A stretch of 64,000 nt of DNA from an uncultured Gammaproteobacteria bacterium (GTDB taxonomy: Bacteria; Patescibacteriota; Microgenomatia; Daviesbacterales; UBA10151), in contig CAZKCV010000001.1 in NCBI GenBank assembly GCA_964551605.1, positions 136,898 through 200,897 on the forward strand, in the 5' to 3' direction. Below the pieces are notes generated by a model. That model had not been told where the DNA came from, ran no database searches, and saw only the letters and a program-made list of their open reading frames with translations. Every line of letters begins with the position of its first letter. Position 1 is the first letter of the stretch. A program made the position numbers and the translations under genes. Positions 33,394 to 48,772 of this stretch are shown here, in pieces.

Positions 33394-34458
33394 CTACCTT
33401 AATCCACCTGTTACTTTCACCTTAGAAAGCAAATTCAGGTTATCCAAGACTTCTCCGCAGCCGCGGACTACTGTAGTCAGCGGATCATCGGAAACATAAA
33501 CCGGCAGCTTGGTTTCTTCAGCAATTCTTTTATCCAATCCCCGCAGGAGTGCCCCACCGCCTGCCAGAAATATTCCTCTCTCTACTATATCCGTTAAGAG
33601 TTCCGGCGGAGTTTCTTCTAAAATTTCCTGGACACCGGAAATCATCTGGGTAATTGTAGGGGTCAAAGCTTCCCTGATTTCAGCAGCAGAAACTTTTATT
33701 GATTTAGGTAATCCTGTTGAAAGATCCCGGCCACGGATGACTGTAGCACTATCCTCTTTATCCTTACCGGGATAGGCCGAACCTATTTCTATTTTGACAT
33801 CTTCGGCAGTCCGCTCCCCGATCAACATTCCATACCTGATCCGCATGTAATTTATAATCTCTTCATCCAGCTCATCTCCGGCAATTCGGAGCGACCTATT
33901 AATTACCATTCCGCCTAAAGATATAATTGCCATTTCTGTGGTCCCTCCGCCAATATCTACAATCATCACCCCCTCTGGATCTTCAACCGGAAGTTTTGCA
34001 CCTATTGCCGCAGCCATTGGTTCTTCAATCAGATAAGCTTCCCTGGCTCCGGCTGATAAACAGGCATCCTGCACTGCCCTCCTCTCAACAGGGGTTACAC
34101 CCGAAGGAATGCCTACTACTACCCGGGGCCTGGGGATCTTTGGCAACGAAAAAATCCCGCTCCCCGGATTATTATGAACTTTCTGGATAAAATAACGAAG
34201 CATGGCTTCGGTAGTGTCAAAATCAGAAATTACTCCATCCCGCAAGGGCCTGACTGCCTCTATTGCTGCCGGGGTCCTGCCTAACATCCTTTTGGCTTCC
34301 CGCCCGATTGCTAAAACCTGCCGGGTTTTTTTATGAAGCGCTACAACAGTAGGCTCCCGGATGACAATACCCTTACCTTTGACCAACACCAGAGTATTAA
34401 CAGTACCCAAATCTATACCAATATCATAGGAGAGAAGCTGCCAGATTTTCCCAAACAT
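33394..34458 (-). CDS. mreB: Rod shape-determining protein MreB
   Basis: Actin-fold motifs DLGTVNT, VVIDIGGGTTE, FLAGGGALL. Confidence 0.9.
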   Translation of the reverse strand: MFGKIWQLLSYDIGIDLGTVNTLVLVKGKGIVIREPTVVALHKKTRQVLAIGREAKRMLGRTPAAIEAVRPLRDGVISDFDTTEAMLRYFIQKVHNNPGSGIFSLPKIPRPRVVVGIPSGVTPVERRAVQDACLSAGAREAYLIEEPMAAAIGAKLPVEDPEGVMIVDIGGGTTEMAIISLGGMVINRSLRIAGDELDEEIINYMRIRYGMLIGERTAEDVKIEIGSAYPGKDKEDSATVIRGRDLSTGLPKSIKVSAAEIREALTPTITQMISGVQEILEETPPELLTDIVERGIFLAGGGALLRGLDKRIAEETKLPVYVSDDPLTTVVRGCGEVLDNLNLLSKVKVTGGLR

Positions 34459-34477
34459 GATGGGAGTTTAACATATC

Positions 34478-34972
34478 TTAAACTTTTAAGAAATTGCCCA
34501 CTATTAAACCTATGGCGGTGGCCAATCCTCCAATCACTAACATCTCGGAGGCGCTCCGGAAGGCTTTCTCCTGAACAATTTTGCCCTTAAAATAACCTAC
34601 TGCAAAAAGGGCTACCAGGGCACCTATTACACTGACAAACCTGGCTATTTCTACCGGTAAAATGATAAACGGCATAATCGGCACCATGCCGGCCAGAAAA
34701 TAGGAAACAAACATTAAAACTGCATCCATTAATAAATCGTCTTTATGCCTATGCCTTTTATCCATCTGGTGAACTGCTTTCTCGGAAGAATATTCACCGG
34801 CTGCCATGGAAGAAGCTTCCACGGAAATGGCTACGAAAGAAGCCAAAATAATAACTGCCTGGTTAGGGGCCCCGACTGAAATACCCACCACCACCCCAGT
34901 GGTGGAAACCAGCCCGTCCTGCAGCCCAAATATCACACTTCTTAAATAATCTTCATCTAATCTAATTTTCAT
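34478..34972 (-). CDS. VIT1/CCC1-family membrane protein
   Basis: GLQDGLVSTTGVVVG signature. Confidence 0.7.
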   Translation of the reverse strand: MKIRLDEDYLRSVIFGLQDGLVSTTGVVVGISVGAPNQAVIILASFVAISVEASSMAAGEYSSEKAVHQMDKRHRHKDDLLMDAVLMFVSYFLAGMVPIMPFIILPVEIARFVSVIGALVALFAVGYFKGKIVQEKAFRSASEMLVIGGLATAIGLIVGNFLKV

Positions 34973-35272
34973 TTAACTAGGATTAAACCTGAATTGCACT
35001 TGTAAAGAAGCTCCCAGAACCTTAGCTAACCTTTTGAGGAAGGAGAGTGAAGGGATTGTTCTGGCATTTTCCACCCGGGAAATCACTGATTGCTTGGTTT
35101 TCATCCGTTTAGCAATTTGAGCCTGAGTTAGACCTTTTTCAAGTCGCGCTTTAATAAGCGCATGAGCTATTTCAAATTCAAGCCGCGTTTCTTCAGCAGC
35201 TTCCTTGAACCCTGGTCTTTGCAATAGCTCCTTTTCAAAATCTTCCCACTTAACATAATTCAGCTTTTTCAT
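34973..35272 (-). CDS. HTH-XRE antitoxin-like regulator (HigA-like family)
   Basis: WEDFEKELL...KGLTQAQIA...TKQSVISRVE...PSLSFLKRLAKVLG. Paralog of the gene at 46533. Confidence 0.7.
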   Translation of the reverse strand: MKKLNYVKWEDFEKELLQRPGFKEAAEETRLEFEIAHALIKARLEKGLTQAQIAKRMKTKQSVISRVENARTIPSLSFLKRLAKVLGASLQVQFRFNPS

Positions 35273-35278
35273 AATTTG

Positions 35279-35307
35279 ATATTATCACAATTTTGCTATA
35301 ATTGCAA
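35279..35307 (-). promoter_or_regulatory. Sigma70-like promoter TTGCAA-N17-TAATAT placing the TSS at the start codon (leaderless mRNA)
   Basis: -35 at 35302-35307 and -10 at 35279-35284 on the minus strand. The start codon is about 7 nt downstream. Confidence 0.4.
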
Positions 35308-35419
35308 TAATCTAATTCGTCTTTTATGGTCTACTAATCTTTCTTCTGCTATCCTAATCTCTTTAGACAGAATCTGCCACTTTTCTCCCATAACCCCAGT
35401 ATATCAGGAAGAATTTTGA

Positions 35420-36853
35420 TTATTCTTTCTGATCTTCTCTATCAAGTATACCGGGATAAACAATGCTCGCTTGGAAGAAATTATCAACTTCCCTTTGACT
35501 AATTCCTTTCCTGCGGGCATCTAAAGAAATTATTCCGTAAGTTGCTAAAACAGCGGCATAAACAAAGGGCGTTGCAGCAATATTGATTAAATCCTCCCCT
35601 CTTCTTTTGATCTTATTATGCAATTTATTAAAATTTTTCAACCAAGCTTGTGATTCTTCTATCTCGCTTTGAGGAACTGTTATTACTTCGGAAGCATCTT
35701 CAATAGTTCTTTTCCCCAACATCCTGGCTAAACCAGCATGGCCTGATTTTATCAAAATCATAGGTACCAGCGTTCGCAGATCATCCCTGAAAGCAGGATT
35801 TTGACATCGGAAGTAACAACTGTATAAACAACCAGGACATCCTTCAACAGCTTCCTCTTTTTTCTTTCTCCACTCCTGACTTTTTAAACTCACACCCGTT
35901 TCAAAACCAGTTCTTATTTCTGAACAAACACCTACCTCTCCTTTTTCTCCTAATGCCCGTATATGGATAAACTGATCTTGCACCGAATCACATTTCCACA
36001 ATTTATCACTAGGATTCATAACCCTTTCTAAATAATTCCAGCCGTCAATTAGAAAACCTCCTTTTCTTAGTGGTTCCAATTTTTGACAAACCATTTTTAT
36101 TTGCTCTAAAGTAGGGACATTACTCTTAGTAGGCGCTGTCGAAAATCCCTGGCCGATTTCTTGAACTATTGATGTGCTAAAGAATACTCCATTTGCCGCA
36201 CAAGTCTTTGCTACTTTAGGAATAATATCAACTCTATCCTTGGTAAAAACAACGCTCACTGTTGGAACAATTCCCTCATTAGCTGCAGCTCTTGCCTTTC
36301 CTATAATACATCTTATACCAGCTTCAGTAGGAGAATGCAGGGAAAAGATTAAAAAATCCAATCCTACCTTTTTAAGTCTTGAGAGGTAAATTAAATTATC
36401 TAAATGATCTCCATTAGTGATGATGCTAGTAATCATACCTGAATTAGAAGCATGACCGATGATTTTTAATGCGTGATCTACGTAAGTATTACCTTCTTCT
36501 GTAATAAATGGGTCTAAGTTTTTCCTAAAATCTACGTACATTAAATTTGCCCCATTCAGGCACATTTGGTATCCCCCCTGACGTACTCCACCATCAAATT
36601 GACATCCTGCGAGAGATTCTCCCCCAACATATTGAAGAAACCTAAAACCCTCATCGTGTGCCCAATCTACTTGCTTTAAAGACTCAGCCACAGTAGAAAA
36701 TCTGCCAGTATTTTGCCTATTGTGCACATTGCAATAGCTACACGCTCTATTGCAGTTTGTAGGGCCTTCCATTATTGCCAAGCTGTGTCCATTTTTAGCA
36801 GCTTCATATGCTCCCCAGACTTTAGACACACCCTTTAAAACTTCTCTTAACAT
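35420..36853 (-). CDS. Radical SAM / SPASM-domain protein with C-terminal hydrophobic helix
   Basis: CNRACSYC (CX3CX2C) motif. C-terminal Cys cluster W-KC...GVC...GCPGCLYSCYFRC. Putative TM IAATPFVYAAVLATYGIISL. Confidence 0.7.
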   Translation of the reverse strand: MLREVLKGVSKVWGAYEAAKNGHSLAIMEGPTNCNRACSYCNVHNRQNTGRFSTVAESLKQVDWAHDEGFRFLQYVGGESLAGCQFDGGVRQGGYQMCLNGANLMYVDFRKNLDPFITEEGNTYVDHALKIIGHASNSGMITSIITNGDHLDNLIYLSRLKKVGLDFLIFSLHSPTEAGIRCIIGKARAAANEGIVPTVSVVFTKDRVDIIPKVAKTCAANGVFFSTSIVQEIGQGFSTAPTKSNVPTLEQIKMVCQKLEPLRKGGFLIDGWNYLERVMNPSDKLWKCDSVQDQFIHIRALGEKGEVGVCSEIRTGFETGVSLKSQEWRKKKEEAVEGCPGCLYSCYFRCQNPAFRDDLRTLVPMILIKSGHAGLARMLGKRTIEDASEVITVPQSEIEESQAWLKNFNKLHNKIKRRGEDLINIAATPFVYAAVLATYGIISLDARRKGISQREVDNFFQASIVYPGILDREDQKE

Positions 36854-36947
36854 AGAGGCTATTATCCCATAACAACAAAACTACCGCAAATAAAACTACT
36901 TGCCCCTATCTACCTCTCTCTGTTAGGATAGAAACGAATACAAGCCA

Positions 36948-39098
36948 ATGGTTAACATTATTCTGGATAGAATCATTCCCTACTCTTTTTATGCCCTCTT
37001 TTTCTTAACTCCCCTGGTTTGGTCATCTGCCAATCATGAGCTTTTTGAATATAACAAAATGATTTTAACTTATGGCCTCACTGTCATTATTGTAGGAGCC
37101 TGGCTACTTAAAGCGATTAACGAAAAACGATTAACGATCAAACGAACTCCCCTAGATATTCCACTTTTATTATTTTTGGGAGCCAATATCCTGTCTACTA
37201 TATTTTCAATTGATCCCCACACTTCTATTTGGGGCTATTATTCCCGTTCAAACGGCGGGCTTTTATCCATCATCTCCTACCTATTATTATATTGGGCGTT
37301 TGTTTCCAATATGGACTTTGAGAGAGTTAAACTTGCCTTAAAATTTGGCCTGACTTCCGGTTTTATTATTTCCCTGTGGGCAATTTTTGAACACTTTGGA
37401 GTTTCTCCGTCCTGTGTAATTTTAAGGGGGGAGTTTAATGCTTCCTGCTGGATACAGGATGTCCAGGCCCGGGTTTTTGCCACTTTAGGCCAACCCAACT
37501 GGCTGGCAGCCTATTTGGCTATGTTAATTTTCCCCACTTTGTATTTTGCTTTAACTGCTTCCCATAAACTATACGCTATACGCTATACGCTTATCGCTAT
37601 TATCTTCTACCTGGCTTTTACCTTTACTTATTCCCGGGGACCCACACTGGGACTGATTGGAGGAATGGCGGTATTTATTATTGGCTACCTCTTCTGGCAT
37701 CCTGAGGGCAAAGCCCGAAGGATCTCTGCTCTACGAAGTACTTATTTTGTAACATTTATTTCAGACCCTCACATTCGTGAGAGATTCTTCACTACGTTCA
37801 GAATGACAAAGCTAGGAGGTATTTTAATCTCTTTCTTAATAATCAACCTCCTCTTTGGCTCAGCCTTAACTTCATTTAGATTAATTTCCAAATTTGCTGC
37901 CCCGGCCAGGCCCGGGATAGCTCTCCCAACCTCAAGCGGCACCCAACTGGAGAACGGCGGTACCGAATCCGGTCAAATCCGATTTATTGTCTGGAAAGGT
38001 GCCCTGGAAATATTTAAACATTACCCGCTTTTCGGCTCAGGAGTGGAAACCTTTGCCTATGCCTATTACCAGTACCGGCCGCCGGAACATAATCTAACCT
38101 CTGAATGGGATTTTCTTTACAACAAAGCGCATAATGAATATCTGAACTACCTGGCTACCACCGGAATTGTCGGCTTTGGGACTTATTTGCTGGTGATTGG
38201 AACATTCATTTATTGGTGTATTAAAAAAATTTCTAAATCCGAATTACTAATTTCTAATCAAATCCCAAATCCTAAACCCCAATTAGGTCAATTAGAAATT
38301 AGATCAATTAGAAATTTAGTTCTTGCACTCCTTGCTGCCTATATCTCCTACTTAATCTATAACTTCTTTCTTTTCTCCGTTGTCATTATTGCCGTCTTTT
38401 TCTATCTACTTCCGGCCCTGGCCTTTGTTGCTGCAAATTCCACTATACCCTATACCCTATACCCTATACCCTACCTCTACCGGAGACCACTATATACCCG
38501 GGTAGCTAAAGGTCTGGTGATTTTTTCCATCATCTATCTTCTATATTCTATATTCCAGCTTTGGTATGCCGATACTTTATTTGCCAAAGGTGAAAAAGCT
38601 ACTGATGCCGGTAGACTGAGTAAAGCCTATGAGTTTTTAACCAGAGCCTCGGATATTAACAGGGCTGAACCGCTTTATCAATCAGAACTGGGTTTTGTAC
38701 AGGCACAGGCAGCTGCGGCTTTAAAAGATACTGATGCTTCCGCATCCGCCGATTTTAAGGACGATGCGGTTTCCCTAACTGAAAATGTCTTAGAAAAAAG
38801 TCCCCAAAATATTTCATTCTACCGGACAGCAGTCAGGACCTATTTTGAGCTTTCCCTGACAGACAATGCCTTCATCGATAAAACCCTGCAAACACTGGAT
38901 CAAAGCATAAAACTGGCTCCCACTGATCCTAAACTTTATTATAATAAAGCCTTAATTCTTGAAAGCATCGGCAAAAAAGAAGAACAAATTAGAGCTTTAG
39001 AAAAAGCCCTACAGTTAAAACCAAATTATCTGGAAGCACTGGCTCTTTTAAAAGAGGCTACCGGATCAGCCCGCCTGCCGGACGGGCAGGCTAAATAA
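36948..39098 (+). CDS. O-antigen ligase (Wzy_C)-domain polytopic membrane protein with C-terminal TPR repeats (PglL/WaaL-like)
   Basis: SRGPTLG and LFGSGVETF...HNEYLNYLATTGIVGF motifs, at least 10 TM helices, TPR-like tail. Confidence 0.7.
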   Translation: MVNIILDRIIPYSFYALFFLTPLVWSSANHELFEYNKMILTYGLTVIIVGAWLLKAINEKRLTIKRTPLDIPLLLFLGANILSTIFSIDPHTSIWGYYSRSNGGLLSIISYLLLYWAFVSNMDFERVKLALKFGLTSGFIISLWAIFEHFGVSPSCVILRGEFNASCWIQDVQARVFATLGQPNWLAAYLAMLIFPTLYFALTASHKLYAIRYTLIAIIFYLAFTFTYSRGPTLGLIGGMAVFIIGYLFWHPEGKARRISALRSTYFVTFISDPHIRERFFTTFRMTKLGGILISFLIINLLFGSALTSFRLISKFAAPARPGIALPTSSGTQLENGGTESGQIRFIVWKGALEIFKHYPLFGSGVETFAYAYYQYRPPEHNLTSEWDFLYNKAHNEYLNYLATTGIVGFGTYLLVIGTFIYWCIKKISKSELLISNQIPNPKPQLGQLEIRSIRNLVLALLAAYISYLIYNFFLFSVVIIAVFFYLLPALAFVAANSTIPYTLYPIPYLYRRPLYTRVAKGLVIFSIIYLLYSIFQLWYADTLFAKGEKATDAGRLSKAYEFLTRASDINRAEPLYQSELGFVQAQAAAALKDTDASASADFKDDAVSLTENVLEKSPQNISFYRTAVRTYFELSLTDNAFIDKTLQTLDQSIKLAPTDPKLYYNKALILESIGKKEEQIRALEKALQLKPNYLEALALLKEATGSARLPDGQAK

Positions 39099-39358
39099 TG
39101 AAACGCCTTGCCAAAGCTATAGCTGAAATTAAATTTAAGGATAGGCCTAAAAATATCTCAACTGAGTTTCAAATGTACGGCGTTTACCTGGCAGAAAGTT
39201 TGCAGGATACCAAACATTATTCACTGTATATCAAACTGGCCAAAGAGGTGGACCGCAGAATCCTGGAAGAAACCTTAAATTTCACCAAAGGCTATTACGG
39301 AGCAAAATCGAAAGCAAAAATCTTTATGTGGAGATTGCAACAATTGAAGCAAGAGTGA
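39098..39358 (+). CDS. Hypothetical protein
   Basis: 86 aa. Start overlaps the upstream stop. Confidence 0.35.
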   Translation: MKRLAKAIAEIKFKDRPKNISTEFQMYGVYLAESLQDTKHYSLYIKLAKEVDRRILEETLNFTKGYYGAKSKAKIFMWRLQQLKQE

Positions 39359-39361
39359 AAA

Positions 39362-39667
39362 TTACACTAGTGTCATTATTTGCTTACCGGGTAAGCGGAA
39401 CATAGGGATAGCGGCATTTTCACATTGCCGACGTACTTCTTCCAAGTCATCAGTCATGGATGTTATCATTTTAAGAAAAAGTGGCTTACTAACTTTAGAT
39501 CTTGTCCTGGTGTAGAAATTCGGATCTAGGACCAATCGCACTGACTGATAACTCACTCCGGCACGCTTTGCTAGCTGGGCTATATTTACCCCCTTTTTTT
39601 CCATAAAAGCAGCAAATCCGGCCGCTAATTCTGGAGTCCTGGGAACATAATATTCTTTGTAGCTCAT
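39362..39667 (-). CDS. Hypothetical HTH-like protein
   Basis: 101 aa. VNIAQLAKRAGVSYQSVR helix-turn-helix. Confidence 0.4.
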   Translation of the reverse strand: MSYKEYYVPRTPELAAGFAAFMEKKGVNIAQLAKRAGVSYQSVRLVLDPNFYTRTRSKVSKPLFLKMITSMTDDLEEVRRQCENAAIPMFRLPGKQIMTLV

Positions 39668-46333: not shown

Positions 46334-46408
46334 GCCGAAGTAGCTCAGCTGGCCTAGAGCGCCACTTTTGTAAAGTGGATGTCGTGGGTTCAAATCCCAC
46401 CTTCGGCT
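46334..46408 (+). tRNA. tRNA-Thr (anticodon UGU)
   Basis: Cloverleaf with 7-bp acceptor gccgaag/cttcggc, anticodon loop tTTGTaa, T-loop ttcaaat. The CCA end is not encoded. Confidence 0.7.
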
Positions 46409-46414
46409 CAGAAC

Positions 46415-46489
46415 GCCGACATAGCTTAGTGGTAAAGCACTTCATTGGTAATGAAGAGACCGTGGGTTCGATCCCCACTGTCGGCTCCA
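46415..46489 (+). tRNA. tRNA-Thr (anticodon GGU)
   Basis: Acceptor gccgaca/tgtcggc, anticodon loop ttGGTaa, T-arm gtggg-ttcgatc-cccac, encoded CCA. Confidence 0.7.
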
Positions 46490-48052: not shown

Positions 48053-48715
48053 ATGGCTTACAAAATGGAACTTAAGGGGAGGGCTATAAACTTAAGAGAA
48101 CAGGGTTATTCCATCAAAGAAATTGCAAAACTTCTCAGTATTGCAAAAAGCACTTCATCTGCATGGCTCAGTAATATTATGCTGTCCCCTAAGGCACAGG
48201 AAAGATTAAAGTCTCGTAGAATTTTAGGACAATACAAATCTATAGAAATCGCACGTAAAAAAAGGGTTGCGCAACAGCTAATATTAACAAATGAGGCTAA
48301 CCAACTTTTATCGAAAGTCTCAATCAATCCAGCAATATGTAAATTATGTTGCGCCCTACTCTTTTGGTGTGAAGGTGCTAAAACCAATACTCTAGTGAAA
48401 TTCACAAATTCAGACCCATCTCTAATAAAATTATTTCTTGATTTACTAAGAACAGGGTTTAAAATTGATGAATCAAAACTAAGAATCCTTATGCATTTAC
48501 ATGAATATCATGTGGAAGAGAAGCAAAAAATATTTTGGAGAGAGATCACTAAAATTCCCCTAGAACAATTCCACAGATCATATCTAAAACCTCACACAGG
48601 GAAACGGAAACATCCGAATTATCCTGGCTGCATTTCTGTAACATATTACAATGCTAAAGTTGCAAAAGAGTTAGCTACAATCTACAATACTTTTGTACAA
48701 AGGGGCGTCCGTTAA
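48053..48715 (+). CDS. HTH-domain protein, possible homing-endonuclease-like. Its 3' end overlaps tRNA-Trp.
   Basis: N-terminal HTH LREQGYSIKEIAKLL. C-terminal region is weakly LAGLIDADG-like (ALLFWCEGAK...LIKLFLDLL). The last 5 codons lie inside the tRNA acceptor stem. Confidence 0.4.
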   Translation: MAYKMELKGRAINLREQGYSIKEIAKLLSIAKSTSSAWLSNIMLSPKAQERLKSRRILGQYKSIEIARKKRVAQQLILTNEANQLLSKVSINPAICKLCCALLFWCEGAKTNTLVKFTNSDPSLIKLFLDLLRTGFKIDESKLRILMHLHEYHVEEKQKIFWREITKIPLEQFHRSYLKPHTGKRKHPNYPGCISVTYYNAKVAKELATIYNTFVQRGVR

Positions 48716-48772
48716 CTGGTAAACGGTTTCTCTCCAAAAGAAATCCTGCAGGTTCGAGTCCTGCCGCCCCTG
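48701..48772 (+). tRNA. tRNA-Trp (anticodon CCA)
   Basis: Acceptor aggggcg/cgcccct, anticodon stem tttct/agaaa with loop ctCCAaa, T-arm gcagg-ttcgagt-cctgc. Confidence 0.7.

What the first reader, a model, noticed from the sequence alone, without database searches (positions are those of the whole stretch)
34973..39098. Radical SAM/SPASM enzyme with a membrane anchor, divergent from a Wzy_C+TPR (PglL/WaaL-like) protein, with a leaderless HTH regulator and a 31-codon ORF between them
The 477-aa protein has the canonical CX3CX2C radical-SAM cluster. It also has a C-terminal Cys-rich SPASM/twitch-like region (CPGCLYSCYFRC plus two upstream Cys) followed by a hydrophobic helix. SPASM radical-SAM enzymes typically modify peptides or proteins (RiPP maturases, anSME). 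The divergently transcribed 716-aa protein has the O-antigen-ligase/O-oligosaccharyltransferase motif HNEYLNYLATTG and a C-terminal TPR domain. Between the rSAM stop and the downstream HigA-like HTH gene, the 147-bp spacer (35273-35419) contains a 31-codon ORF (MGEKWQILSKEIRIAEERLVDHKRRIRLLQL). It also contains a good TTGCAA-N17-TAATAT promoter that makes the HTH mRNA leaderless. This may be a compact envelope-protein modification module. The small ORF could be a substrate or leader peptide, or a toxin remnant.
Basis: partly seen in the sequence, partly recalled or inferred. Interest (0 to 1): 0.6.

Follow-up and report, generated by a model that had tools for sequence, protein, structure and literature searches.

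The report
Membrane-anchored radical SAM gene beside toxin-antitoxin relic
The genes are real, but they are a patchwork rather than one envelope-modification module: a rare, probably membrane-anchored radical SAM enzyme of unknown substrate and a decayed toxin-antitoxin pair were inserted next to a widely conserved Wzy_C-TPR membrane protein gene in a Candidatus Daviesbacteria genome.

Summary
All four ORFs sit at the stated coordinates. The 477-aa protein is a genuine radical SAM enzyme: CX3CX2C, a GGE motif and a TIM-barrel model. It carries five conserved downstream Cys in a twitch-like pattern and a C-terminal hydrophobic helix kept in nearly all long relatives. The proposed module is not supported. 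The Wzy_C-TPR gene is a core gene in 80 Daviesbacteria/Gottesmanbacteria-like species loci, where it normally lies head-to-head with mreB. Only 3 of those 80 loci have the radical SAM gene beside it, one as a pseudogene, and more distant relatives lie elsewhere. The 31-codon ORF is an in-frame deletion relic of a 117-aa Gp49/HigB-like toxin that is intact in a close relative, so the HTH is its orphan antitoxin, not a regulator of the enzyme. The enzyme belongs to a tiny uncharacterised family (19 word-indexed hits in 5.8 billion proteins). BlsE is its closest solved structure, and no curated family threshold is met. In four independent loci, short relatives sit just downstream of a DedA/VTT membrane protein gene; in another, after two GT-C glycosyltransferase genes. 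I infer, with moderate confidence, a membrane lipid or polyprenyl-phosphate-linked substrate rather than a peptide. Interest is modest.

The parts
35420..36853 (-). Radical SAM enzyme, 477 aa, from an uncharacterised family restricted to Daviesbacteria-like CPR bacteria
36731..36754 (-). CX3CX2C motif (C34, C38, C41) that binds the radical SAM [4Fe-4S] cluster
   Evidence: Invariant in alignments A1 and A3.
36500..36616 (-). Clade-specific insertion of about 40 aa after the GGE motif, with two semi-conserved Cys (C84, C98), modelled as a beta-hairpin
   Evidence: Present in the 18 close orthologues and absent from P0022/P0023 and the short forms. Low pLDDT at residues 84-91.
35804..35998 (-). 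Twitch-like auxiliary-cluster region: W-x-C288-x16-G305-x4-C310 ... C339-x2-C342-x3-C346
   Evidence: The five Cys are invariant or nearly so across 25 relatives down to 25% identity. Pfam SPASM 0/25; DUF3463 weakly in 10/25.
35519..35593 (-). C-terminal hydrophobic helix (about aa 421-445), a probable tail anchor, followed by a short conserved VYPG-type tail
   Evidence: Kyte-Doolittle scan: KD at least 1.6 in 15 of the 18 close orthologues, the best stretch in 2 more (KD 1.4-1.5), and absent from the 330-385 aa forms. AF2 places it in a long helix, 397-449.
35296..35391 (-). 31-codon relic of a Gp49/HigB-like toxin gene (codons 1-8 fused in frame to the last ~20 codons)
   Evidence: In L004 an intact 117-aa PF05973 gene occupies the same position. 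Protein alignment: MGEKW / EIRIAEERLVDH against MEEKW / EIKVAEARLVDH.
35279..35307 (-). Conserved promoter- or operator-like stretch (TTGCAA-N17-TAATAT) just upstream of the HTH start codon
   Evidence: 20/21 identical with L004, where it overlaps the end of the toxin gene. It scores 8/12 against the sigma-70 consensus. Function not shown.
34973..35272 (-). Xre/HTH_3 antitoxin, now orphan, of the Gp49/HTH toxin-antitoxin pair
   Evidence: HTH_3 E 4e-15. 85% identical to the L004 gene that follows Gp49. The same pairing occurs in L014, L017 and L018.
34478..34972 (-). VIT1-family membrane protein, another variable occupant of the mreB|wzy gap
   Evidence: Pfam VIT1 E 2e-28. Present in 14 of the 80 loci, 12 of them without the rSAM.
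36948..39098 (+). Wzy_C (aa 216-413) + C-terminal TPR (aa ~547-700) polytopic membrane protein; a core gene, not part of the rSAM unit
   Evidence: Pfam Wzy_C 67.8 bits plus TPR. 162 relatives were found in genome contigs; the best 80 kept are from Daviesbacteria/Gottesmanbacteria-like MAGs. It is head-to-head with mreB (<300 nt) in 33 of 71 loci.
39098..39358 (+). 86-aa ORF whose start overlaps the Wzy_C-TPR stop; the conserved partner of that gene
   Evidence: Found directly downstream in nearly all Daviesbacteria-like loci (53-88% identity) but not in the Gottesmanbacteria-like ones. No Pfam or NCBIfam hit.

Best explanation
The region is a mosaic, not a functional module. The Wzy_C-TPR gene and its overlapping 86-aa partner form a core unit of this lineage that ancestrally lies head-to-head with mreB. 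The mreB|wzy gap is a variable insertion site. In this genome it holds a VIT1 gene, a decayed Gp49(HigB-like)/HTH toxin-antitoxin cassette, and an accessory radical SAM gene. In the cassette the toxin is reduced to 31 codons by an in-frame deletion and the antitoxin is intact. The radical SAM protein has the standard SAM cluster plus a twitch-like auxiliary-cluster domain, and a single C-terminal hydrophobic helix probably holds it at the cytoplasmic face of the membrane. Inferred step: it performs radical chemistry on a membrane-embedded, non-peptide substrate, either a lipid or a polyprenyl-phosphate-linked sugar or glycan. The own tail anchor would replace the DedA/VTT or GT-C membrane partners encoded next to its shorter relatives. 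Shown: gene content, the toxin relic, non-conservation of the pair, the fold class, the Cys pattern, conservation of the tail, and DedA/GT-C adjacency in relatives. Inferred: membrane topology, number of clusters, substrate class, and the reaction. Sub-claim confidence: mosaic about 0.9; toxin relic about 0.95; lipid or lipid-linked substrate about 0.4.
Against: The substrate inference is guilt by association from about five contexts of relatives only 25-32% identical to this protein. The window has no DedA gene. The closest solved structures include peptide maturases (SkfB, PqqE, SuiB) as well as nucleoside-sugar enzymes (BlsE, AbmM, viperin), so the fold does not discriminate. The hydrophobic helix of this particular protein is borderline (KD 1.62). 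The AF2 model is of moderate confidence (pLDDT 74; below 50 around residues 345-355). All close orthologues (48% identity or more) do lie in the mreB|wzy gap, so a functional link with Wzy_C-TPR in this subclade cannot be strictly excluded.
Confidence: 0.5

Rival explanations
1. One reading: the rSAM is a peptide or protein maturase (RiPP- or anSME-like) working with the Wzy_C-TPR protein as an envelope-protein modification module, with the small ORF as substrate or leader peptide.
For: The twitch/SPASM-type fold resembles SkfB, PqqE, SuiB and anSME. In the Daviesbacteria subclade the rSAM is divergent from or close to Wzy_C-TPR. Tandem paralogues occur (L010, L099), as in some RiPP clusters.
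Against: The pair is present in 3 of 80 Wzy_C-TPR loci. The small ORF is a deleted toxin gene and is absent next to other orthologues. There is no RRE-sized N-terminal domain, no Pfam SPASM hit (0/25), and no conserved precursor, protease or exporter. In L001, L007 and L009 the downstream gene is convergent or overlapping and unrelated.
Confidence: 0.12
2. The rSAM acts on a nucleotide or nucleoside-sugar, like BlsE, AbmM or viperin, and is a conflict or defence gene carried in variable genomic islands.
For: The top structural matches BlsE, AbmM and viperin all act on nucleoside or nucleotide substrates. There are weak pVip/viperin hits. The family is patchy and rare, shows tandem duplication, and diverges faster than its neighbours (rSAM 39-74% against MreB 85-92%). 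It sits among toxin-antitoxin modules, integrases, and TraG and Bub-like genes.
Against: The viperin and pVip hits cover only the generic SAM-binding core, are far below threshold (26 against 180 bits) and are no better than MoaA or PqqE hits. Viperins lack the 5-Cys domain. There were no homologues in 50,697 phage or 72,556 plasmid records. DedA/GT-C coupling and a membrane tail are not explained by a soluble nucleotide substrate. Toxin-antitoxin modules are ubiquitous in CPR variable regions.
Confidence: 0.13
3. The rSAM is a decaying or neutral accessory gene with no current function in this genome.
For: L011 carries a split copy, L094 looks 5'-truncated, and the neighbouring toxin gene has decayed.
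Against: The window ORF is full length with every invariant residue of the family intact. The C-terminal tail motif is conserved among orthologues.
Confidence: 0.05

Closest known systems
BlsE (cytosylglucuronate decarboxylase, PDB 7vob), a twitch-type radical SAM enzyme
   Different: Only 17-18% identity. NCBIfam BlsE model scores 23 bits against a cut-off of 400. The sequence match stops before the C-terminal domain. This protein adds a ~40-aa insertion, a five-Cys motif and a hydrophobic tail. BlsE is a soluble antibiotic-pathway enzyme.
SPASM/twitch peptide maturases (SkfB, PqqE, SuiB, anSME)
   Different: No RRE or PqqD-like domain. No Pfam SPASM match. CX2CX3C instead of CX2CX5CX3C, and no seventh Cys. 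No precursor peptide gene.
PTO1314-family radical SAM proteins (TIGR03961, function unknown)
   Same: The only curated model that aligns over nearly full length to relatives (positions 31-306 of 332; E 1e-17 to 1e-19 for P0042 and P0055).
   Different: Scores are 27-67 bits against a cut-off of 306, so this is not a member. That family has no known function either.
Lipid-modifying radical SAM enzymes (HpnH with its DUF3463 domain; Tes/GDGT-MAS)
   Different: The window protein itself does not hit DUF3463, HpnH or Tes models. HpnH and Tes hits in relatives cover only the generic core.
HigBA-type (Gp49/RelE-superfamily toxin + Xre-HTH antitoxin) type II toxin-antitoxin modules
   Same: Toxin-first gene order, PF05973 toxin plus HTH_3 antitoxin in relatives L004, L014, L017 and L018. 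A conserved palindromic promoter/operator-like stretch lies before the antitoxin.
   Different: Here the toxin is reduced to 31 codons, leaving an orphan antitoxin. The HigA equivalog model scores 14 bits against a cut-off of 47.7.

Membership tests
Radical SAM superfamily (PF04055) | CX3CX2C cluster motif, GGE SAM-binding motif, and a partial TIM-barrel fold | tested here: met
SPASM domain (PF13186 / seven-Cys motif CX9-15GX4C...CX2CX5CX3C...C) | Match to the SPASM model and the full seven-Cys pattern for two auxiliary clusters | tested here: not met
   No Pfam SPASM hit in the protein or in 25 relatives. Only five conserved Cys: C-x16-G-x4-C and CX2CX3C.
Twitch-domain radical SAM enzymes (BtrN/MoaA/SkfB/BlsE type) | Shortened SPASM: a beta-hairpin flanked by Cys plus a downstream CX2C ligating one auxiliary cluster | tested here: inconclusive
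   The motif C288-x21-C310-x28-C339-x2-C342 fits, and the model shows strands at 295-299, 306-308 and 314-317. The best structural matches are twitch enzymes.
BlsE, cytosylglucuronate decarboxylase (TIGR04466) | Score above the equivalog cut-off of 400 bits | tested here: not met
   23.3 bits.
Prokaryotic viperin (NF038283 / PADLOC pVip) | Full-length match above cut-off, including the viperin C-terminal nucleotide-binding extension | tested here: not met
   26 bits against 180; the match covers only residues 127-187.
Tetraether synthase Tes (NF045702) and HpnH (TIGR03470) | Match to the family model | tested here: not met
   No hit for the window protein at E <= 0.1. Relatives hit only over the core, with 38-46 bits against cut-offs of 450 and 225.
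RiPP radical SAM maturases | An RRE/PqqD-like recognition domain (in cis or encoded nearby) and an adjacent precursor peptide gene | tested here: not met
   The N-terminus is a single 20-residue helix before CX3CX2C. No conserved small ORF next to orthologues. The only small ORF is a toxin relic.
Wzy_C / O-antigen ligase-like family (PF04932) | Match to the Wzy_C model in a polytopic membrane protein | tested here: met
   67.8 bits against a cut-off of 31.7, residues 216-413. Assignment to WaaL, PglL or Wzy subtypes was not resolved. No sequence-level PDB match outside the TPR region.
HigBA-type type II toxin-antitoxin module | An intact RelE-superfamily (Gp49) toxin gene immediately upstream of an HTH antitoxin | tested here: not met
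   Met in L004, L014, L017 and L018. In the window only 31 of about 117 codons remain. The HigA equivalog model scores 14.3 bits against 47.7.

The most novel reading that the evidence does not exclude
The rSAM family (tail-anchored in CPR bacteria, encoded beside DedA in others) could be a previously unrecognised class of membrane-interface radical enzymes. It would remodel a polyprenyl-phosphate carrier, a lipid-linked glycan or a membrane lipid. Its patchy distribution, fast divergence, tandem duplication and island location would also fit a role in phage or host conflict. If so, the DedA-rSAM-membrane protein cassette would give a chemical handle on what DedA/VTT proteins carry.
Probability: 0.15. 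Interest if true: 0.7.

Novelty: new variant of a known kind. Interest (0 to 1): 0.33.

Why it matters
It matters modestly. This analysis rules out a tempting RiPP or envelope-protein module and shows how a toxin-antitoxin relic can pass for a leader peptide. What remains is an orphan radical SAM family with an unusual architecture: a twitch-like domain plus a C-terminal membrane anchor. Its recurrent linkage to DedA/VTT and GT-C genes in relatives could point to unknown radical chemistry on lipid carriers. DedA substrates and CPR envelope biology are both poorly understood, so that is of some interest. The conserved mreB / Wzy_C-TPR / 86-aa ORF arrangement is a separate lead for CPR cell-envelope growth.

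Tried and rejected
- **Curated family assignment:** Pfam, NCBIfam and PADLOC scans of the rSAM and its relatives gave no family above threshold.
- **PDB by sequence:** the single sequence gave only spurious PDZ hits; the profile gave BlsE over the core only.
- **Structure libraries:** the AFDB50 fold library was unavailable.
- **Metagenome scans:** alignment A3 was too diverse to use; alignment A4 returned only two loci, with no shared neighbours.
- **Viral contigs:** one scan found nothing and the other found only generic rSAM hits.
- **Phage and plasmid collections:** no family members.
- **DedA in the window:** a small DedA HMM built here found none in 64 kb.
- **Precursor peptides and RNAs:** nothing in the 945-nt gap upstream of the L007 orthologue; no Rfam hit around the locus.
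- **Literature:** searches for BlsE/twitch, DUF3463, and DedA plus radical SAM found nothing relevant. Tes and Mss papers gave background only.
- **VIT1 or P-type ATPase as functional partners:** rejected, because VIT1 is far more common in the gap than the rSAM.
Full report
**Observation.** The window is a piece of a Candidatus Daviesbacteria (CPR/Microgenomates) chromosome. The 477-aa protein is found 100% identical on an NCBI contig of 223 kb, and its nearest named relatives are Daviesbacteria. Pfam confirms Radical_SAM (E 9e-11), Wzy_C (E 1.2e-18) with C-terminal TPR repeats, and an HTH_3 domain (E 4e-15). The 31-aa ORF hits nothing. The SPASM model is not matched.

**The small ORF and the HTH.** In the closest relative with context (L004, rSAM 74% identical), an intact 117-aa PF05973 (Gp49, RelE/HigB-like) gene lies between the rSAM and the orthologous HTH, which is 85% identical. 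The window's 31-codon ORF aligns to the first codons (MGEKW against MEEKW) and to the last ~20 codons (EIRIAEERLVDH against EIKVAEARLVDH) of that gene. The ~90 codons in between are missing, in frame.
- Intact Gp49+HTH pairs occur at the same genomic site in L014, L017 and L018, and a truncated one in L012.
- The small ORF is therefore a toxin relic and the HTH is an orphan antitoxin of a toxin-first (HigBA-type) module.
That fits an internal antitoxin promoter or operator.
- The -10 hexamer ends 6 nt before the ATG and there is no Shine-Dalgarno sequence, so a leaderless transcript fits the geometry. However, the site matches only 8 of 12 consensus positions, promoter-like sites here are not above shuffled expectation, and no transcript data exist.

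**The gene pair.** A scan of one genome per species found 162 relatives of the Wzy_C-TPR protein. The best 80 loci are all Daviesbacteria-, Gottesmanbacteria- or Microgenomates-like MAGs.
- tblastn of the window's proteins against these loci found the rSAM upstream of Wzy_C-TPR in only three: L011, L014 and L063. In L011 it is split into two ORFs.
- mreB and wzy are head-to-head and less than 300 nt apart in 33 of 71 loci. In the other 38 the gap holds 0.3-4.3 kb of varied cargo: VIT1, the Gp49/HTH pair, and unidentified genes.
- Elsewhere the gap also contains a P-type ATPase (L001, L009) or a MutS-like gene plus an unknown gene between the rSAM and wzy (L004).
- More distant rSAM relatives lie in unrelated places. 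The 42% orthologue P0015 sits between an unknown 175-aa gene and DUF5656, near an integrase and a Fic gene. L093 is next to a hydrolase and a CorA-like gene. L094 is next to a Doc-type toxin-antitoxin module.
- The Wzy_C-TPR gene instead travels with an overlapping 86-aa ORF, then def and fmt, and with mreB.
- The adjacency in the window is therefore best explained by inheritance of an insertion in a variable gap within one subclade.

**The enzyme.** Only 19 proteins in 5.8 billion matched by word-indexed search. An exhaustive profile search of 1.84 billion representatives gave 595 hits at E < 1e-3 and 38 below 1e-30.
- In 18 orthologues the invariant residues include C34/C38/C41, G77-G78-E79, C218, W286, C288, G305, C310, C339, C342 and C346.
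- Across 25 relatives down to 25% identity, C288, G305 and C310 stay invariant and C339, C342 and C346 nearly so.
- The pattern C-x16-G-x4-C ... C-x2-C-x3-C is the first half of a SPASM motif plus a CX2C, which makes it twitch-like. The seven-Cys SPASM pattern and the Pfam model are not met.
- No NCBIfam model comes near its cut-off. The PTO1314 family, itself of unknown function, is the only model that aligns nearly full length to relatives.
- Long forms (447 aa or more) nearly all have a hydrophobic stretch at about residues 420-445; forms of 330-385 aa have none. After it comes a short VYPG-type motif conserved among orthologues.
- Because Fe-S/SAM chemistry is cytoplasmic, the protein is most simply a C-tail-anchored enzyme. 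This is an inference.
- There is no RRE-sized N-terminal domain.

**Clues to function.**
- Short relatives are encoded directly after a DedA/VTT_dom gene in four independent loci. The gaps are 1 nt, 10 nt, a 1-nt overlap, and 170 nt.
- One further relative sits directly after two PMT_2 (GT-C) genes.
- L095 reads UbiA-DedA-rSAM-GT4-DedA, followed by a phosphodiesterase-family gene, a carbamoyltransferase and a second family member.
- The genes after the rSAM encode multi-hydrophobic-segment proteins with only faint mutual similarity.
- Ten of 25 family members weakly match DUF3463. From my own recollection this is the C-terminal domain of the hopanoid enzyme HpnH.
- By established knowledge, DedA, GT-C, UbiA and Wzy_C proteins all handle polyprenyl-phosphate carriers or membrane lipids. 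I therefore favour a membrane lipid or lipid-linked glycan substrate at about 0.4.
- Peptide maturation (about 0.12) and nucleotide or defence chemistry (about 0.13) remain open.
- Points for the conflict reading: tandem paralogues (three in L099, two in L010); rSAM divergence (39-74%) well above that of the flanking MreB (85-92%) and Wzy (65-70%); and island-like surroundings with toxin-antitoxin modules, integrases, and TraG and Bub-like genes.
- Against it: PADLOC gives only generic pVip core hits, and no phage or plasmid record carries the family.

**Verdict.** The individual annotations and the 'toxin remnant' option are right; the module and substrate-peptide ideas are wrong. What is left is an orphan, probably tail-anchored, twitch-type radical SAM enzyme: a new variant of a known kind with an open substrate. 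It sits next to an ordinary decayed toxin-antitoxin cassette and a core Wzy_C-TPR gene. Interest is about 0.33.

Noticed in passing
window 33394-39358; loci L011-L090: The Wzy_C-TPR gene lies head-to-head with mreB in 33 of 71 species loci (<300 nt) and within 4.3 kb in the rest. In Daviesbacteria-like loci it is always followed by an overlapping 86-aa ORF with no database match. This is a conserved, uncharacterised unit next to the cell-shape genes (mreB/mreC/PBP2) in CPR bacteria that lack an outer membrane.
   Followed up: partly
L097 6442-8703; L101 5391-7501; L104 5357-7825; L095 816-5761: There is a recurrent DedA/VTT - radical SAM - multi-TM protein cassette in metagenome contigs that do not look like CPR genomes. 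Some copies lie beside transposases, a resolvase, TraG, RadC or Bub-like ThiF/E2/Multi_ubiq/BubE genes. In L095 the cassette is embedded in a UbiA/GT4/second-DedA cluster.
   Followed up: partly
L099 174-4569; L010 616-3487: Tandem arrays of family paralogues: three in L099 (508, 368 and 506 aa, 30-31% identical to one another) and two in L010.
   Followed up: no
L011 4746-5875: The rSAM orthologue is split into two ORFs (118 + 284 aa) and lacks the C-terminal tail, so it is probably a pseudogene.
   Followed up: no
window 36500-36616 (-): A ~40-aa insertion after the GGE motif is specific to the close orthologues. It has two semi-conserved Cys (C84 in 14/18, C98 in 16/18), and C218 is invariant in the same clade. 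This may be an extra metal site.
   Followed up: no
window 39362-39667 (-): A 101-aa weak-HTH ORF between the 86-aa ORF and def has a close counterpart only in L011 (84%) and a faint one in L018. It is another accessory insertion in otherwise conserved synteny.
   Followed up: no
window 35403-35433: A 12-bp-stem inverted repeat spans the rSAM stop codon. It scored as terminator-like on the + strand, which is the wrong strand for the gene. It may still mark the 3' end of the rSAM transcript or the old toxin promoter region.
   Followed up: no
window 46334-46486 and 48701-48772: Three tRNA genes, the only Rfam matches in the 64-kb window. The 56-58 kb segment has raised GC (0.51) inside a 754-aa ORF.
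   Followed up: no
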